A DNA stretch of 64,000 bases from Octopus sinensis (Eukaryota): positions 32,178,001 through 32,242,000 of the forward strand of contig NC_043007.1 of NCBI RefSeq assembly GCF_006345805.1, read 5' to 3'. The position numbers are program-made. This document shows, in pieces, positions 51,201 to 60,200 of the stretch (position 1 is the first letter of the stretch; every line of letters begins with the position of its first letter).

Positions 51201-54200
51201 TTATCGTTATCGGAACATAAGCAAACAATAAATAGGGCAGAGAAATCTGAAATTTTAAAAAAAGAAACAGGATAATTAAAATTTTCAAAAAGAAAAATCA
51301 TTAAAAAAAATAATAAATGAATAATTTACTAATGAATTAATTATACTTTTTATAGATCTATAGAAAGTGAAAGTGTTCTTTCTGTAATGGTTTCATTGTT
51401 AAATACGCATTTACATTATTCTCGTTTTAATTTGGATCGAAAAATGTTTGGTTGCTGGAAATTTTAACTCAGGAAATTTGTCGGGTTTCATGTATTTATA
51501 CAGACACACAGCGATCTAAGTCAAAACTCCCCATCAAAATACCATGTTAATATATATTCTAGATGTCTGTTTCATATTGACAAACTTATTTTACTAAATT
51601 ATTTCCTATTTTCTAAAGTAACAGCAACAAAGTATTGTATTTTGACAGATTTTTAGCAACGAAAGGTTTAACTGCGAGACTGTTACAGTTTTTAGCGTTG
51701 TTTGATGATCGAACAAACCATGAAGTGTTTAATTTATGGTCCCTTATATTTTCAGTTCAGGTTTTGTTGCGGTTAAATTTACCATTTGTTTTTTTCTTGG
51801 GCTGATAACATATGTAAAGTTCCAATCAACCATTGGATTCGATCTCGTAAAACATTTCGTAAAACATCTTCAGTATGAATGGAATTATGATAGACTTGTT
51901 ATTTGATATTAAGTTTCTCTCCGAACCAAGCTGACTAATGTCTGTCTCACATATTGATGGGAATCACCCATGGTTATGGAAAATGTCCCCTCAGTAGTGG
52001 ATGCTTGTGCATAACGACGAGTTTTAAGGAAGAATAGGCTATTATATATCATTCATGACACACCTGTGGATGCAGGTGTCTTAGTGATTTGGCTGTTGCA
52101 CTCGTGATCATAAGATTGTGGTTTCAATCCCTGGACTGGGCGATGTGTCGTGTTCTGGCGCAAAACACTTTATTTCAGATTGGTCCAGTCCACTCAGGTG
52201 GAAAAAAGGAGTAATTCTATGACCGATTGGTGTCCTATCCAAGTGGGGAATATATACACCACAGAATCATCCAGGAAACTGGCCTTACGATCCTATGGCT
52301 TGAGAATGATCTTTGATCCTTTCCTCATGGTACACCAACAGCCTGTAACCGGAATCTGTGATTGGATCCAGTCTCATGGTTGATTAAGACAAGTGGGGAC
52401 TCTTCTCTTAAGGCGAGATATTAAATAGGCTTTTATAGACAGACAGGAAGTGAATTGAACGTTGCAATCTAACAAACTACTGTTCTGTATCTGCTCAGCC
52501 AGCACTGACCTTGGGTTGTAGAATAACATTTTTACAATGCTGCTTCTACTTACACAGTTCCTGTTTACAACTAGTGGACTGAGGCAACTGATCATTTGAC
52601 TTGGTACCTGTCATTTCAGTCATCTACACTTAAAGCAAATAAGAGTTCAGTGTTATAAAGTAATGCAAAATTGTTGATAAAATCAAGCCCATAGCCTAAT
52701 TTTATTTTTCGTATAGAACCCAGTTAAGTCACAACCCTCTCTCTCTTTCGGAGAGGCACTGAGCACCTACACACACACATACACACACGGCAGGAACTTC
52801 CACCTACCGAATTCAATCACAAAGCTTCGGTCGACTCGGGGCTATAGTGGACAATATTCGTTCTTAATTATTTATTCAGTGAACTCTACAAAGGTAATTA
52901 ACAGGTTTCATATCTACAATGTGATTTGTTAAATAAATGACTTCCTTTTACCTTCCAGATTCTGAAAGCGATGCAGATCAGTTTAATCTTGGTGCAGGTC
53001 ATGAAAGCAGCGCCCTCAGTGACAGCAATGATGAGGGCAGAGGTGACAGCTATGTTCCTTTCTTCTCACAGAAGAGAAAATTGGAAACTTCAGATGATGA
53101 AGGATCAAACAGACCAACAAAGGTTCCAAGAACACCTCGTACAAAAACAAGTCCCGTGGCTAATAATGCTGGAGTAAGTATTTGGTTTTTAATTTAACAG
53201 AATTAATTGAACATTGGACAAAATGCCTTGCTGTTGTTTACAAGGAGGCAGCTATACTTTCGTCTCTCAGAGATTCTTTAGTTAAATTCAGGATATTGTG
53301 AGGAAATCTTTTGAAAAGGTAAAAGCAAGAATGAAAATGTCAGTCTTTGGATGGTCACTGTGTACTCAATGTACTCTCTGAATGGGCAAAAGTACATACA
53401 AAGGAAAGAAATATGTGGAAAGGGCACTAAGTAACTGTGGTATTCGTACACATATGGGGAGAAGTTTTTGAGGAGTAGGGCAAAGACCATACTTTTTGCC
53501 CCCAAATTTTTAATATTGCCCCAAAACACTCAAAGACAAAGTTGATTAGACTAATTAATATTGTAATTAAGCTAAAACTGCAATGCTGGTACATAAGTGA
53601 AAATTTTGATTATGAAATGACAATATTTGATGACATTTTTGATATTTTACACATCAGGGAAGAAATGAAACAAGCTCAGAAGAGATTTCTTCTTCTTTGT
53701 CATCTGGAAGCTAAATATGCTGACAATGTTGCCAACATCTTGACATAAAGTTGCATTTGCAGAGAAACCAGAGCCAAATGTTTTAGATGATCTTGTCCCA
53801 TCATGTTGAATAGATAATTCTTCAATCTTCTGAGGATATTAAAAGAATATCGAGAACATGGCATGGCAGGAATCGTGGGTAAAATTTGAAATGCAGATAT
53901 AAGCATGAACTTATTGTATACAGTGTTCAGGTAGACTACAACTCATCACAAATACTAACCAGAACTGCATGAACAGTACATAGAATATGCCCAGGGAGTG
54001 AACAGGGAATAAGTCTACATAACAAAAAAAACAAAAAAAAACCCCAACATATTAAGATAAAATGTTCCAAACCCAGGCAAGGCTGCACAGCAACTTGGGG
54101 GAATGTCTTCTACCATAGCCTAAAACCAAACCCAAGCCTTCTAGGATAAAATCATGGAAACAGAACGGCATGGGAGCTCATATGTAGATTTTTTATTCAA

Positions 54201-57200: not shown

Positions 57201-60200
57201 AGGCAGATGCAAGCACTTTTATCATTAGGTGTTCTGCACTACTAAAAAATCCATGGTAATTCTTTTATTAGACATGCCATTCCAAATAAGTCCCGTGGGC
57301 CTCATTTTGCCCTTCACTGGCAAAGCCTGTCACTTGTCTTCCAGTGTTTTCTTTACAGCATTTCTTTTTTCTTTCTTTTACAATTTTAGAAGTTGAAGAA
57401 TGTCTTATCTTACACTTTGTTTTTTTATTTATCTCACTGAAATTGGAAATTCTAAATAATCAATTTTCTATTTCTTTAGAAAAAACTAAACAGAAATCTC
57501 GGTTACAGTCAAATGAATTCCTATGGAGTATTCGAAAAGCATGGCACATTGGATTTAAATTCAGAAGTGAAAGGTCAGTCAGTGATTTTCATAAAATCCT
57601 AATCAGTTGGGCATCATAAGTACAATTTACTCTCTACAGCTGGTGTCACTATAAAACCTCTAATTACTTTGTTGGCTGGCTGGTTGGTTGGCTGGCTGGC
57701 TGGTTGGCTGGCTGGCTGGCTGGCTGGCTGGTTGGTTGGCTGGCTGGCTGGTCGGCTGGCTGGCTGGCTGGCTGGTTGGCTGGCTGGCTGGTTGGTTGGT
57801 TGGTTGGTTGGTTGGCCTGTCAACTCTAATCAAACAGATTTGTAATCAAAGGTATTCCTTCTTTTCTTTTATACATCGAAATCAAAATCAAATTCGACGA
57901 CTAGCATCCATGCTAGCGGGGTGCAAAGAGCACCATACGAGTGTGATCGTTGACAGAGCGGCTAACCGGCTTCCATGCCAGTGGCACATAAAAGGGCACC
58001 ATTCGAGTGTGATCATTACTAGTGTCGCCTTACTGGCACTTGTGCCCGTGCTAGTAGGCTTCCAAGAACACCATCTGAGCATGATCGTTGCCAGAGCAGT
58101 CAACTGGCTTCCGTGCTGGTGGCACGTAGAAGGACACCATTCAAGTGTGATTGTTACCAATGTCACCTTACTGGCACCTGTGCCAGTGGCATGTGTAAAA
58201 GGATTTGAGCGAGGTCATTGCCAGTACTGCCTGACTGGCCCCTGTGCCGGTAGCACGTAAAAAGCACCTACTACACTCTCAGAGTGGTTGGCATTAGGAA
58301 GGGCATCCAGCTGAAGAAACTCTGCCAGATCAAGATTGGAGCCTGGTGCAGTTATCTGGTTTGCCAGCCCTCAGTCAAAAAGTCCAACCCATGCTAGCAT
58401 GGAAAGCAGACATTAAACGATGATGATGATGATGATTTATGACAAAGAACAATGATAGCTGATGAAATGCTGGGCTCCTGAGCCCCAAATAGGGGCAGCA
58501 TTTTACTGCATATAGTCTCTCACTTAACTCTTTTCATAAGACATTGCCATTACATACTGTTTATAATTATTTGGGTTTAAATATTTGGTTAAAGTCATTA
58601 ATTATTGTTCATAGAAATATGGAAAGAACTGAAGAATTCATAATAATAATAATAATAATAATAATTGTGTACAGTGCTCAGGTGCACTACAACTCATCTA
58701 AAGTGTATATATAATCAGGTGTAGTTTCGGCGGATTTCGGAAAGCATGAGGGCCTTAAAAGATGCAGTGTCATGGCAGTCAACAACTGACGCAGGCAGTT
58801 TATTCCATGCTTCAGCAACTCTGAGCGTGAAAAAATGTTTCCGAAAGTCATAGGAGCTGTATTGTTTTCTGAAATATCTGATTTTTTTTTTCCAATGAAA
58901 GGTTTCTCTTTTTTGTTAAATGCCTTCTTCAGATTCCGATAGTGAACCTGAGCCACAAGCATTGTTATCTGGCCACGAGAGCACAACATTCAGTGACAGC
59001 AATGATGAAGGGAAACCAGAACTATTTTCTCCTTCTTTTTCTGCAAGACAATCAGAAGATTCACAGAAGGAACAAATGGCCAATAAATTCCAGAATGCAC
59101 AAACTTCTTCCTACAGTGAAACCAGTTTAAAAATTATGGTAAGCAGAACACTTTACTTCATTGAATTCTTAATATTTTGTATTTATTTCTTTATTACCCA
59201 CAGGGGGATAAACAGAGAGGGGACAAACAAGGACAGACAAAGGGATTAAGTCGATTACATTGACCCCAGTACGCAACTGGCACTTAATTTATCGACCCCA
59301 AAAGGATGAAAGGCAAAGTGGACCTTGGTGGAATTTGAACTCAGAATGTAACGGCAGACGAAATACAGCTAAGCATTTCGCCCGACAGTCGGGGGTTGAC
59401 CTGCTTTCTCTTCTGCGGGTCTTACGAATAGCAAAGGGCCACGTTACGGACTTCTCCCACTCTGGGACAAAGACTGCTTCGCTCAACAAACAAATAAACA
59501 AACAAACAAGCAGCAGCAGCACCACCACCACCATCATCATCATCATCATGGCCATTAACATTGTCAGTGAATTAGATGAGCAAGGTTTCATAACTGCTTG
59601 TGGCTCTGAGTCCAGTTTCTACACAGATTTGGCAATCCAGTCATTTCTCATTGCTTGATGAATCATGTATCTCTGCTGTTAATTTCTACCTAAATTTTTT
59701 AAGTAGTTCTTAAGTCTAAAAGACTAAAAAGAGTTTACCATGCATCATTCACATTTTCTTATAATTTTCCAGATATTTTCATTTATGATATTCTGGCTGT
59801 AATAGTGTTGTAATATTATTGTCTACCTTTCAATGTTGTTGTGTAATAAATAGATTAAAGTATTGTTTGTGATTTTATTGATATTTTCTCACTCTCCCTT
59901 CTTTGCATTGACAGGCTAAAATGGGTTACCAAGATGGTAAAGGTCTTGGTAAAAATGCCCAAGGTCGTGTTGAAATTGTAGAAGCATCGAAGCAAAGGGG
60001 CCGACGTGGTTTCGGTCTTTATCCAAAAGCATTTTTGAAAACTGAAATGAAATGGGATCCTGACGAAGAAGAGGTAACAGTCTGTCATTAATTTAAAAAA
60101 AAACAAAACAAAACAGAATTTTAGCAAGGAAAGATAGACCCTTAATATTTGAGTTAAATCTTAGTACAAATGTTTTTCCCTTTATAGTTTTAGCTTTGCC

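What the first reader, a model, noticed from the sequence alone, without database searches (positions are those of the whole stretch)
52630..59138. Triplicated, phase-compatible exon module multiplying the acidic N-terminal patch of CMTR1
Seen: exons A (52959) and B (56097) are 215-nt paralogs, each followed by linker exons a and b. Exon C (58933) is an older paralog sharing DS.S......GHES...SDSNDEG. Intron sequence is duplicated too (52632-52730 versus 55859-55958). All copies keep their splice sites and frame, and the only exonic indel between the young copies is 9 nt. A, B and C all enter in phase 1 and exit in phase 0, and a and b do the reverse. Exon 1 can therefore join A, B or C, and A or B can join a downstream linker or the G-patch exon, all in frame. 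Known: human CMTR1 has one NLS and one CK2-phosphorylated Ser/acidic patch before the G-patch that binds DHX15. Inference: a tunable array of one to three copies of CK2 sites, with KRK/RNRK NLS-like and TPR CDK-like motifs in A and B. This would be a lineage-specific regulatory expansion of a self-RNA-marking enzyme.
Basis: partly seen in the sequence, partly recalled or inferred. Interest (0 to 1): 0.75.

Follow-up and report, generated by a model that had tools for sequence, protein, structure and literature searches.

The report
Triplicated acidic exon module in octopus CMTR1
An octopus gene for the mRNA cap-methylating enzyme CMTR1 has tripled, by two rounds of internal exon duplication, the serine- and acid-rich stretch before its G-patch; this is real and open-reading but fairly ordinary, and its function is untested.

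Summary
The window carries the 5' part of a CMTR1 gene of an Octopus species other than O. bimaculoides. Its exons are exon 1, A, a, B, b, C, the G-patch exon and two more.

A/B and a/b are young paralogs, 87.9% and 89.4% identical, and their intron flanks are duplicated too. C is an older paralog of A/B (0 of 2000 shuffles reach the score).

NCBI's O. bimaculoides CMTR1 model (1027 aa) reads exon1-A-a-B-b-C-G-patch as one frame. NCBI's Argonauta hians model (904 aa) has two modules. Four unnamed cephalopod CMTR1 proteins and one exon fragment have one. The expansion therefore came in two steps within Octopoda.

Evidence for selection is weak. Pooled dN/dS is 0.47 (p=0.047), a/b is 0.97, and exon divergence is about equal to intron divergence.

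No transcript data could be seen, so a splicing-tunable array is untested. Skipping C would clip the G-patch.

This is a new variant of a known kind, of modest interest.

The parts
50441..50471 (+). CMTR1 exon 1, coding part (MSFEKVERLS plus the first base of the next codon). It exits in phase 1.
   Evidence: 10 of 10 residues are identical to the start of P0004. The donor is CGG|gtgtgt.
52616..52730 (+). Intron block upstream of A, duplicated upstream of B at 55843-55957.
   Evidence: 107 of 115 nt identical. Only these two copies exist in the window. No Rfam family and no unusual fold.
52959..53173 (+). Exon A: acidic Ser-rich head followed by a basic Pro-rich tail. 215 nt, phase 1 to 0.
   Evidence: Open frame. 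64 of 71 aa identical to P0004 residues 12-82. Splice sites.
55019..55121 (+). Linker exon a. 103 nt, phase 0 to 1.
   Evidence: 32 of 34 aa identical to P0004 residues 83-116. The A-to-a junction is also present in NCBI's partial model P0010.
55843..55957 (+). Second copy of the duplicated intron block, upstream of B.
56097..56311 (+). Exon B, the young paralog of A. 215 nt, phase 1 to 0.
   Evidence: 189 of 215 nt identical to A. 60 of 70 aligned aa identical to P0004 residues 118-187.
57480..57573 (+). Linker exon b, the young paralog of a. 94 nt, phase 0 to 1. It lacks 9 nt that a has.
   Evidence: 84 of 94 nt identical to a. 26 of 31 aa identical to P0004 residues 189-219. The same 3-codon gap separates a and b in O. 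bimaculoides.
58933..59138 (+). Exon C: the older paralog and the canonical acidic exon that abuts the G-patch exon. 206 nt, phase 1 to 0.
   Evidence: 61 of 68 aa identical to P0004 residues 221-288. Its head is homologous to A and B. Its last 7 residues lie inside the Pfam G-patch match of P0004.
59915..60073 (+). G-patch exon. 159 nt, phase 0 to 0.
   Evidence: Pfam PF01585 at E=1e-11, 45 bits against a cut-off of 22. 52 of 53 aa identical to P0004.
61083..61175 (+). Next CMTR1 exon (ITAMETIDW...). 93 nt.
   Evidence: 26 of 31 aa identical to P0004 residues 342-372. Splice sites.
62154..62225 (+). Following CMTR1 exon (KKRIIDDELNF...). 72 nt. The methyltransferase domain lies beyond the end of the window.
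   Evidence: Sequence and splice sites. I matched it by eye to P0004 as printed.

Best explanation
**Shown.** The region is the 5' part of an octopus CMTR1 gene. In four unnamed cephalopod CMTR1 proteins and one exon fragment, the Ser/Asp/Glu-rich stretch between the N-terminus and the G-patch forms a single module; the fragment suggests it is one exon. Here that stretch was multiplied by two rounds of tandem duplication inside the gene. The first round predates the split between Octopus and Argonauta. It gave an A-type exon plus a short linker exon upstream of the original exon C. The linker restores the reading frame. The second round copied about 3.1 kb holding the A-type exon, the linker and their introns. 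It predates the split between this species and O. bimaculoides and gave A-a-B-b. All five exons keep their frame and splice sites. Public gene models join them all into one protein that is about 190 residues longer than single-module CMTR1.

**Inferred.** The exons are mostly included together. The product has about three times as many minimal acidophilic-kinase (CK2-type, S/T-x-x-D/E) sites in a disordered N-terminal arm. By analogy with the human P-Patch, such an arm would strengthen or grade phosphorylation-dependent recruitment of CMTR1 to the RNA polymerase II CTD.

**Also inferred.** The copies have partly divided the ancestral exon's features. Only A and B keep a basic stretch. Only C keeps the flank that starts the G-patch. 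That division would favour keeping both types.
For: - **Anatomy and phases:**
- **Gene identity:** G-patch Pfam hit on the window's exon. Per-exon identity to P0004 is 84-100%. P0004 matches a solved CMTR1 structure, 8p4e_O, at E=9e-256, and carries FtsJ and G-patch domains.
- **Inclusion in models:** P0004 (NCBI, O. bimaculoides, 1027 aa) reads exon1-A-a-B-b-C-G-patch. P0010 (NCBI partial) joins A to a. P0009 (NCBI, Argonauta hians, 904 aa) reads A-type, linker, C-type, G-patch.
- **Single-module relatives:** P0005-P0008 and the exon fragment P0011.
- **Tree:** the C-type clade with Argonauta has support 100/99. The A-type clade with Argonauta has 84/76.
- **Age of the A/B split:** the 3-codon a/b gap and 5 paralog-specific columns are shared by the two Octopus species.
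- **Some constraint:** dN/dS for A against B is 0.37, and 0.23 over codons 1-57. Pooled dN/dS is 0.47, Fisher p=0.047. The second half of the linker is kept in Argonauta, 11 of 21 aligned residues.
- **Site counts:** minimal CK2-type sites number A 5, a 1, B 6, b 0, C 7. N-terminal totals are 20 in P0004, 12 in P0009 and 6 in P0006.
- **Division of features:** basic triplets occur in A and B and none in C. The Pfam G-patch match of P0004 starts at residue 282, 7 residues before the junction between C and the G-patch exon.
- **Human P-Patch facts:** passages of PMC11290353.
Against: - I saw no transcript evidence. The three supporting proteins are automated gene models.
- Within the window, exons are no better kept than introns. 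Exon identity is 88.3%, against 86.4% for all aligned intron (p=0.45) and 83.4% for the near flanks (p=0.077).
- dN/dS is 0.97 for a against b, and 0.91 for the last 14 codons of A against B.
- B plus b carry 12 changes unique to the window. A plus a carry 6. The difference is not significant (p=0.24) but hints at looser constraint on the younger copy.
- Exon b lies between two inverted SINE-like copies, each about 200 nt and 84-88% complementary. Such a pair could favour skipping b, which would break the frame.
- Exons A and C on their own show no sequence similarity to any solved chain, human CMTR1 included: 0 matches at E up to 10. The P-Patch analogy therefore rests on position and composition only.
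- The KRK and TPR motifs of the window are not kept in O. bimaculoides.
Confidence: 0.62

Rival explanations
1. The modules form a cassette array and alternative splicing produces proteins with one, two or three acidic patches. Possible forms are exon1-C, exon1-A-a-C, exon1-B-b-C, the full form, or A or B joined directly to the G-patch exon. CK2-site valency would thereby be tuned by tissue or state.
For: - Every one of these joins is in frame by phase arithmetic.
- A+a is 318 nt and B+b is 309 nt. Both are multiples of three, so each pair can be skipped as a unit.
- Tandemly duplicated exons are a known source of alternative splicing (abstracts of PMC9013439 and PMC9741552 in the listing).
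Against: - I saw no isoform. The only full-length public models include all modules.
- Forms without C lose the first 7 residues of the Pfam G-patch match.
- Forms without A and B lose the only basic triplets upstream of the G-patch.
- No complementary docking or selector pair was found for the conserved intron block.
Confidence: 0.2
2. The younger copy, B-b, is a neutral passenger of a recent segmental duplication. It may be spliced in because its signals are still intact, or it may be skipped. Either way it is on its way to decay and adds no selected function. Only the A-type module and C are maintained.
For: - a/b dN/dS is 0.97. The A/B tail is 0.91. Exon divergence is about equal to intron divergence.
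- B and b are less conserved between the two Octopus species (60 of 70 aligned residues, 26/31) than A and a (64/71, 32/34).
- 12 against 6 window-unique changes.
- An inverted repeat pair flanks exon b.
Against: - B and b keep frame, length and splice sites in the window. They keep frame and length in O. bimaculoides, although the duplication predates the split between the species.
- Five of B's six minimal CK2-type sites sit where A has them.
- dN/dS over codons 1-57 of A/B is 0.23.
- Of the 7 changes unique to B, 5 are to Ser or Glu, which keeps the acidic Ser-rich make-up.
Confidence: 0.22
3. A, B and C are mutually exclusive exons of the classical kind, with exactly one used per transcript. 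The linker exons would be annotation artefacts.
For: - A, B and C share entry and exit phase and have similar lengths (215, 215, 206 nt), none a multiple of three. A direct A-to-B or B-to-C join would shift the frame.
- This is the usual signature of mutually exclusive exons. That rule is recalled; one search showed only listing abstracts.
Against: - The linkers are conserved: 32/34 and 26/31 residues between the Octopus species, and a recognisable linker exists in Argonauta.
- They have good splice sites and exactly the phase needed to chain the modules.
- Three independent NCBI models use a linker.
- Using A or B alone would clip the G-patch.
Confidence: 0.06

Closest known systems
Human CMTR1 P-Patch (aa 26-89), the CK2-phosphorylated region between the NLS and the G-patch (PMC11290353, passages read)
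   Same: - It holds the same place in the protein, just upstream of the G-patch.
- It has the same Ser/Thr-plus-acid make-up with many S/T-x-x-D/E sites.
- HMMER's alignment of P0004 to the solved 835-residue CMTR1 chain starts at P0004 residue 220, which is the start of module C, opposite chain residue 30.
   Different: - The octopus has three modules and two linker exons. Residues 11-219 of P0004 have no counterpart in that alignment.
- The modules alone show no detectable sequence similarity to the human chain.
- The basic stretch sits inside modules A and B, not ahead of the patch.
- Phosphorylation, the kinase and the effect on Pol II binding are untested in any cephalopod.
Tandem exon duplication as a source of repeats or of mutually exclusive exons (abstracts of PMC9013439 and PMC9741552, seen in the listing)
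   Same: Adjacent homologous exons share phase and length. They were produced by duplicating genomic segments that include intron sequence.
   Different: Joint inclusion is made possible by a dedicated linker exon whose phase (0 to 1) complements that of the modules (1 to 0). Public models chain the copies and do not choose among them. Mutual exclusivity was not testable here.
Single-module cephalopod CMTR1 (P0005-P0008, and the exon fragment P0011; unnamed records)
   Same: - Same exon 1 (MS.GKVERLS) and same acidic head (SESDADQ...GHESSALSDSNDE).
- Same G-patch, FtsJ and WW architecture.
   Different: They have one module, which P0011 suggests is a single exon. That one module combines the A-type head, a basic KK.K stretch and the C-type tail (...KMM) that abuts the G-patch. 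In Octopus these features are split between A/B and C.

Membership tests
CMTR1 (cap-specific mRNA nucleoside-2'-O-methyltransferase 1) | A G-patch domain N-terminal to the catalytic domain | tested here: met
   Window exon 59915-60073 hits PF01585 at E=1e-11, 45 bits against a cut-off of 22. It also hits PF12656 at 26.4 bits against a cut-off of 26.
CMTR1 (cap-specific mRNA nucleoside-2'-O-methyltransferase 1) | An FtsJ/RrmJ-type 2'-O-methyltransferase domain | not testable with these tools
   The window ends at 64000, upstream of this domain. The close relative P0004, whose first 372 residues match the window's exons at 84-100%, has PF01728 at E=7e-34. It also matches the solved CMTR1 catalytic domain 4n48_A at E=1.5e-152.
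CMTR1 (cap-specific mRNA nucleoside-2'-O-methyltransferase 1) | C-terminal guanylyltransferase-like and WW domains | not testable with these tools
   These lie outside the window. In P0004 the WW match is weak: E=8e-4, 19.8 bits, below the cut-off of 26.9. The full-length alignment to 8p4e_O does run to chain residue 831 of 835.
CK2-phosphorylated P-Patch of CMTR1 | A cluster of Ser/Thr with acidic residues downstream, placed between the N-terminus and the G-patch | tested here: met
   S/T-x-x-D/E counts are A 5, B 6, C 7, a 1 and b 0. All sit upstream of the G-patch exon.
CK2-phosphorylated P-Patch of CMTR1 | Sequence homology to the human P-Patch | tested here: inconclusive
   Exons A and C alone give 0 PDB matches at E up to 10. 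The full-length alignment of P0004 does extend through module C to chain residue 30.
CK2-phosphorylated P-Patch of CMTR1 | Actual multi-site phosphorylation by CK2, and a phosphorylation-dependent gain in Pol II CTD binding | not testable with these tools
   This needs phosphoproteomics and binding assays. The human data come from PMC11290353.
Mutually exclusive exon cluster | Adjacent homologous exons of the same phase and similar length | tested here: met
   A, B and C are 215, 215 and 206 nt, and all run from phase 1 to phase 0. Homology is shown.
Mutually exclusive exon cluster | One and only one exon of the cluster in each transcript | not testable with these tools
   No transcript data were available. 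The public models P0004 and P0009 chain the modules through linker exons, which speaks against this feature but does not settle it.

The most novel reading that the evidence does not exclude
Octopods have turned CMTR1's single phospho-regulatory patch into a modular array. Its copy number per protein would be set by regulated splicing of the A-a and B-b cassette pairs. Its copies have divided the ancestral functions, with the basic, import-like stretch in A/B and the G-patch flank in C. Cap-1 methylation, the mark of self RNA, would then be graded by kinase signalling in a way no other animal is known to use. The inverted SINE-like pair around exon b would be part of that splicing control.
Probability: 0.12. 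Interest if true: 0.6.

Novelty: new variant of a known kind. Interest (0 to 1): 0.33.

Why it matters
CMTR1 writes the cap-1 mark that distinguishes self mRNA. In human cells its recruitment to RNA polymerase II depends on CK2 phosphorylation of one N-terminal patch (PMC11290353).

The octopod series has one, two and three such patches, each step made by a clean tandem exon duplication. That gives a ready-made set of proteins for asking whether the number of patches sets the strength of Pol II binding.

It is also a tidy example of how a phase-complementary linker exon lets exons whose lengths are not multiples of three be chained. The other possible outcome is that such exons become mutually exclusive.

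Beyond that, it is an ordinary expansion of a disordered region. It is already present, without comment, in automated annotations.

Tried and rejected
- **Origin of the linker exons.** I suspected that a and b derive from the tail of exon C or from the start of the G-patch exon. This was rejected. For protein, a against C was reached by 1040 of 2000 shuffles, a against the G-patch exon by 283 of 2000, and b against them by 1622 and 1247 of 2000. The DNA scores were no better, at 237-889 of 1000. Their origin stays open.
- **Tails of A/B against C.** Residues 27 to the end are not significantly similar: 124 and 253 of 2000 shuffles.
- **RNA pairing.** I looked for a docking or selector type of pairing for the well-kept 115-nt intron block. 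No complementary partner appeared among the 25 longest of 31 inverted pairs. There was no Rfam match at gathering level; 2 weak snoRNA-like hits lie elsewhere, at E=0.13-0.3. The block does not fold better than shuffles, with z of 0.00 and -0.65.
- **Wider relatives of the module.** Exon A searched against 1.84 billion representative proteins gave 1 hit, P0011. Pfam finds nothing in A, a, B, b or C, 0 families each.
- **Isoforms and orthologs.** They remain unseen.
- **Date of the Octopus-Argonauta split.** PMC9635652 holds no date in its text. I give none.
- **Orthologous cephalopod DNA.** Codon-level tests between species were therefore not possible.
- **Joined spliced model.** The window's exons were never joined. 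Every search with window sequence was made exon by exon. Full-length comparisons used the public protein P0004.
- **Supplements.** None were consulted.

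
Full report
**What is there**

| Exon | Coordinates | Length (nt) | Phase in to out |
|---|---|---|---|
| Exon 1, coding part (MSFEKVERLS) | 50441-50471 | 31 | 0 to 1 |
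| A | 52959-53173 | 215 | 1 to 0 |
| a | 55019-55121 | 103 | 0 to 1 |
| B | 56097-56311 | 215 | 1 to 0 |
| b | 57480-57573 | 94 | 0 to 1 |
| C | 58933-59138 | 206 | 1 to 0 |
| G-patch exon | 59915-60073 | 159 | 0 to 0 |
| Next exon | 61083-61175 | 93 | 0 to 0 |
| Following exon | 62154-62225 | 72 | 0 to 0 |

Every exon has an AG acceptor behind a pyrimidine tract and a GT donor. Every frame is open. A six-frame motif scan finds only these three module copies in the window.

**The young duplication**

- A and B match at 189 of 215 nt without any indel.
- a and b match at 84 of 94 aligned nt, with one 9-nt gap.
- The duplication is genomic, not exonic only. Intron flanks align at 73/97, 47/56, 89/103 and 93/106 nt.
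- A block 230-340 nt upstream of A (52616-52730) matches one upstream of B (55843-55957) at 107/115 nt.
- That block has only these two copies in the window, so it is not a dispersed repeat.
- The rest of the introns differs through insertions of SINE-like repeats.

**The older duplication**

- C shares its first 26 residues with A and B. No shuffle reached the score: 0 of 2000 for each.
- At the DNA level the local alignment runs over about 130 nt, with 0 of 1000 shuffles reaching it.
- The tails are not significantly alike: 124 and 253 of 2000 shuffles.
- No intron homology is left around C.

**What gene it is**

- The window's exon 59915-60073 is a G-patch: PF01585, E=1e-11.
- Exon A, searched alone among longer proteins, found NCBI's 'cap-specific mRNA (nucleoside-2'-O-)-methyltransferase 1 [Octopus bimaculoides]' (P0004, 1027 aa) at 90% identity.
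- Exon by exon, the window matches the first 372 residues of P0004:

| Exon | Identical residues |
|---|---|
| Exon 1 | 10/10 |
| A | 64/71 |
| a | 32/34 |
| B | 60 of 70 aligned |
| b | 26/31 |
| C | 61/68 |
| G-patch exon | 52/53 |
| Next exon | 26/31 |

- P0004 carries FtsJ and G-patch domains. It matches a solved 835-residue CMTR1 chain (8p4e_O) at E=9e-256.
- The window is therefore the 5' part of the CMTR1 gene of an Octopus-like species other than O. bimaculoides. The catalytic domain lies beyond position 64000.
- Nothing in the window was taken for human.
Every search with window sequence was made exon by exon, and that joined step is left out. Full-length comparisons used the public protein P0004.

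**Are the extra exons used?**

- I could reach no transcript data.
- P0004 reads exon1-A-a-B-b-C-G-patch as one frame.
- A partial NCBI model from an older O. bimaculoides scaffold joins A to a (P0010).
- NCBI's Argonauta hians model (P0009, 904 aa) reads an A-type module, a linker, a C-type module and then the G-patch.
- All three are automated predictions. They are consistent with inclusion but do not prove it.
- The 8 members of P0004's cluster might hold isoforms or orthologs.

**History**

- Four unnamed full-length or near-full-length cephalopod proteins have a single module (P0005-P0008, 507-837 aa).
- P0011, a 107-residue genome-predicted fragment, shows that module apparently as one exon; after ...KMM the model appears to read on into intron.
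- That single module combines three features: the A-type head (SESDADQ...GHESSALSDSNDE), a basic KK.K stretch, and the C-type tail that abuts the G-patch.
- In a tree of 12 module sequences, the C-type modules of Octopus and Argonauta form a clade (100/99) and the A-type modules form another (84/76).
- Argonautidae and Octopodidae are separate families of incirrate octopods. The A-type/C-type duplication therefore predates their split. I found no date in print.
- The A-a/B-b duplication predates the split of the two Octopus species. The 3-codon gap between a and b, and 5 paralog-specific columns, are shared by both.
- Two columns are species-specific in both copies. A and B differ at only 5 of 71 residues in O. 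bimaculoides against 15 of 71 here. In the tree the two O. bimaculoides copies sit together.
- This fits either partial gene conversion or faster divergence in the window's lineage. I cannot tell which without orthologous DNA.

**Selection**

| Comparison (Nei-Gojobori) | dN/dS |
|---|---|
| A against B, whole | 0.37 |
| A against B, codons 1-57 | 0.23 |
| A against B, codons 58-71 | 0.91 |
| a against b | 0.97 |
| Pooled | 0.47 (Fisher p=0.047) |

- Exon identity is 88.3%. That is not distinguishable from aligned intron at 86.4% (p=0.45) or from the near flanks at 83.4% (p=0.077).
- B+b carry 12 residues unique to the window, against 6 for A+a (p=0.24).
- The stronger argument for coding constraint is comparative. 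An A-type exon and a linker with the right phases have stayed open since before the Octopus-Argonauta split. This bears on the module type, not specifically on B-b.

**Function**

- Passages of PMC11290353 show the following for human CMTR1. It has an NLS, a P-Patch (aa 26-89) multiply phosphorylated by CK2, and a G-patch that binds DHX15. P-Patch phosphorylation raises binding to the Pol II CTD. The patch is predicted to be disordered.
- In the octopus protein, module C holds the same position. The alignment of P0004 to the solved chain starts at residue 220, opposite chain residue 30.
- Residues 11-219 (A-a-B-b) are extra.
- Minimal CK2-type sites number 5, 1, 6, 0 and 7 in A, a, B, b and C. 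N-terminal totals are 20 in P0004, 12 in Argonauta and 6 in a single-module protein.
- The modules alone have no detectable similarity to any solved chain. The analogy is therefore positional and compositional.
- Basic triplets occur only in A and B, not in C.
- The Pfam G-patch match begins 7 residues inside exon C. Forms lacking C, or lacking both A and B, would each lose something. This favours joint inclusion over free choice.

**Novelty**

- No paper in the library holds both 'CMTR1' and 'octopus': 0 papers.
- A looser search listed no paper with CMTR1 among its top 10.
- The expansion is visible in public annotations but, as far as these searches go, undescribed.
- It is a new variant of a known kind: tandem exon duplication enlarging a disordered regulatory arm of a well-known enzyme.

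**Verdict**

- The interest is modest.

Noticed in passing
window 56441-56641 and 58232-58433: Two inverted copies of a SINE-like repeat, each arm about 200 nt and 84-88% complementary, bracket exon b (57480-57573). In pre-mRNA they could pair and loop out exon b. Skipping b alone would shift the frame. Such duplexes are also typical substrates for RNA editing (recalled).
   Followed up: partly
window 52616-52730 and 55843-55957: This intron block is better conserved between the two duplication units (107/115 nt, 93%) than the exons (88%) or the near flanks (83%). The probability of 8 or fewer mismatches in 115 nt is 0.002 to 0.07, depending on the reference rate. There is no Rfam family, no special fold and no complementary partner. 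It is unexplained. It may be a conversion tract or a splicing element.
   Followed up: partly
window 57673-57832: A long (TGGC/TGGT)n microsatellite sits in the b-C intron, right where homology between the two duplication units ends (family D1).
   Followed up: no
window 1-3327 (+): An open frame of 1109 codons runs from the first base of the window. It is very Ser-rich and has many degenerate copies of a unit of about 10 residues (..AHPAQVSGSS..). It has no Pfam family. It is probably a large exon of the neighbouring upstream gene.
   Followed up: partly
window 18274-20609 (-): Two overlapping open frames carry reverse-transcriptase matches (RVT_1, E=5e-13 and 8.5e-11) and a weak PHD finger match. 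This is a retroelement remnant.
   Followed up: no
window 36908-37318 (+): An open frame carries the HTH domain of Mos1-type transposases (PF17906, E=7e-8). This is a mariner-like remnant.
   Followed up: no
window 56420-56980, 63663-63973, 40608-40918 and others: A SINE-like repeat family begins with an (ATC)n run. It gave 26 BLAST hits in the window, the closest 89-91% identical over 316 nt. Copies lie in the B-b intron, the b-C intron and downstream CMTR1 introns.
   Followed up: no
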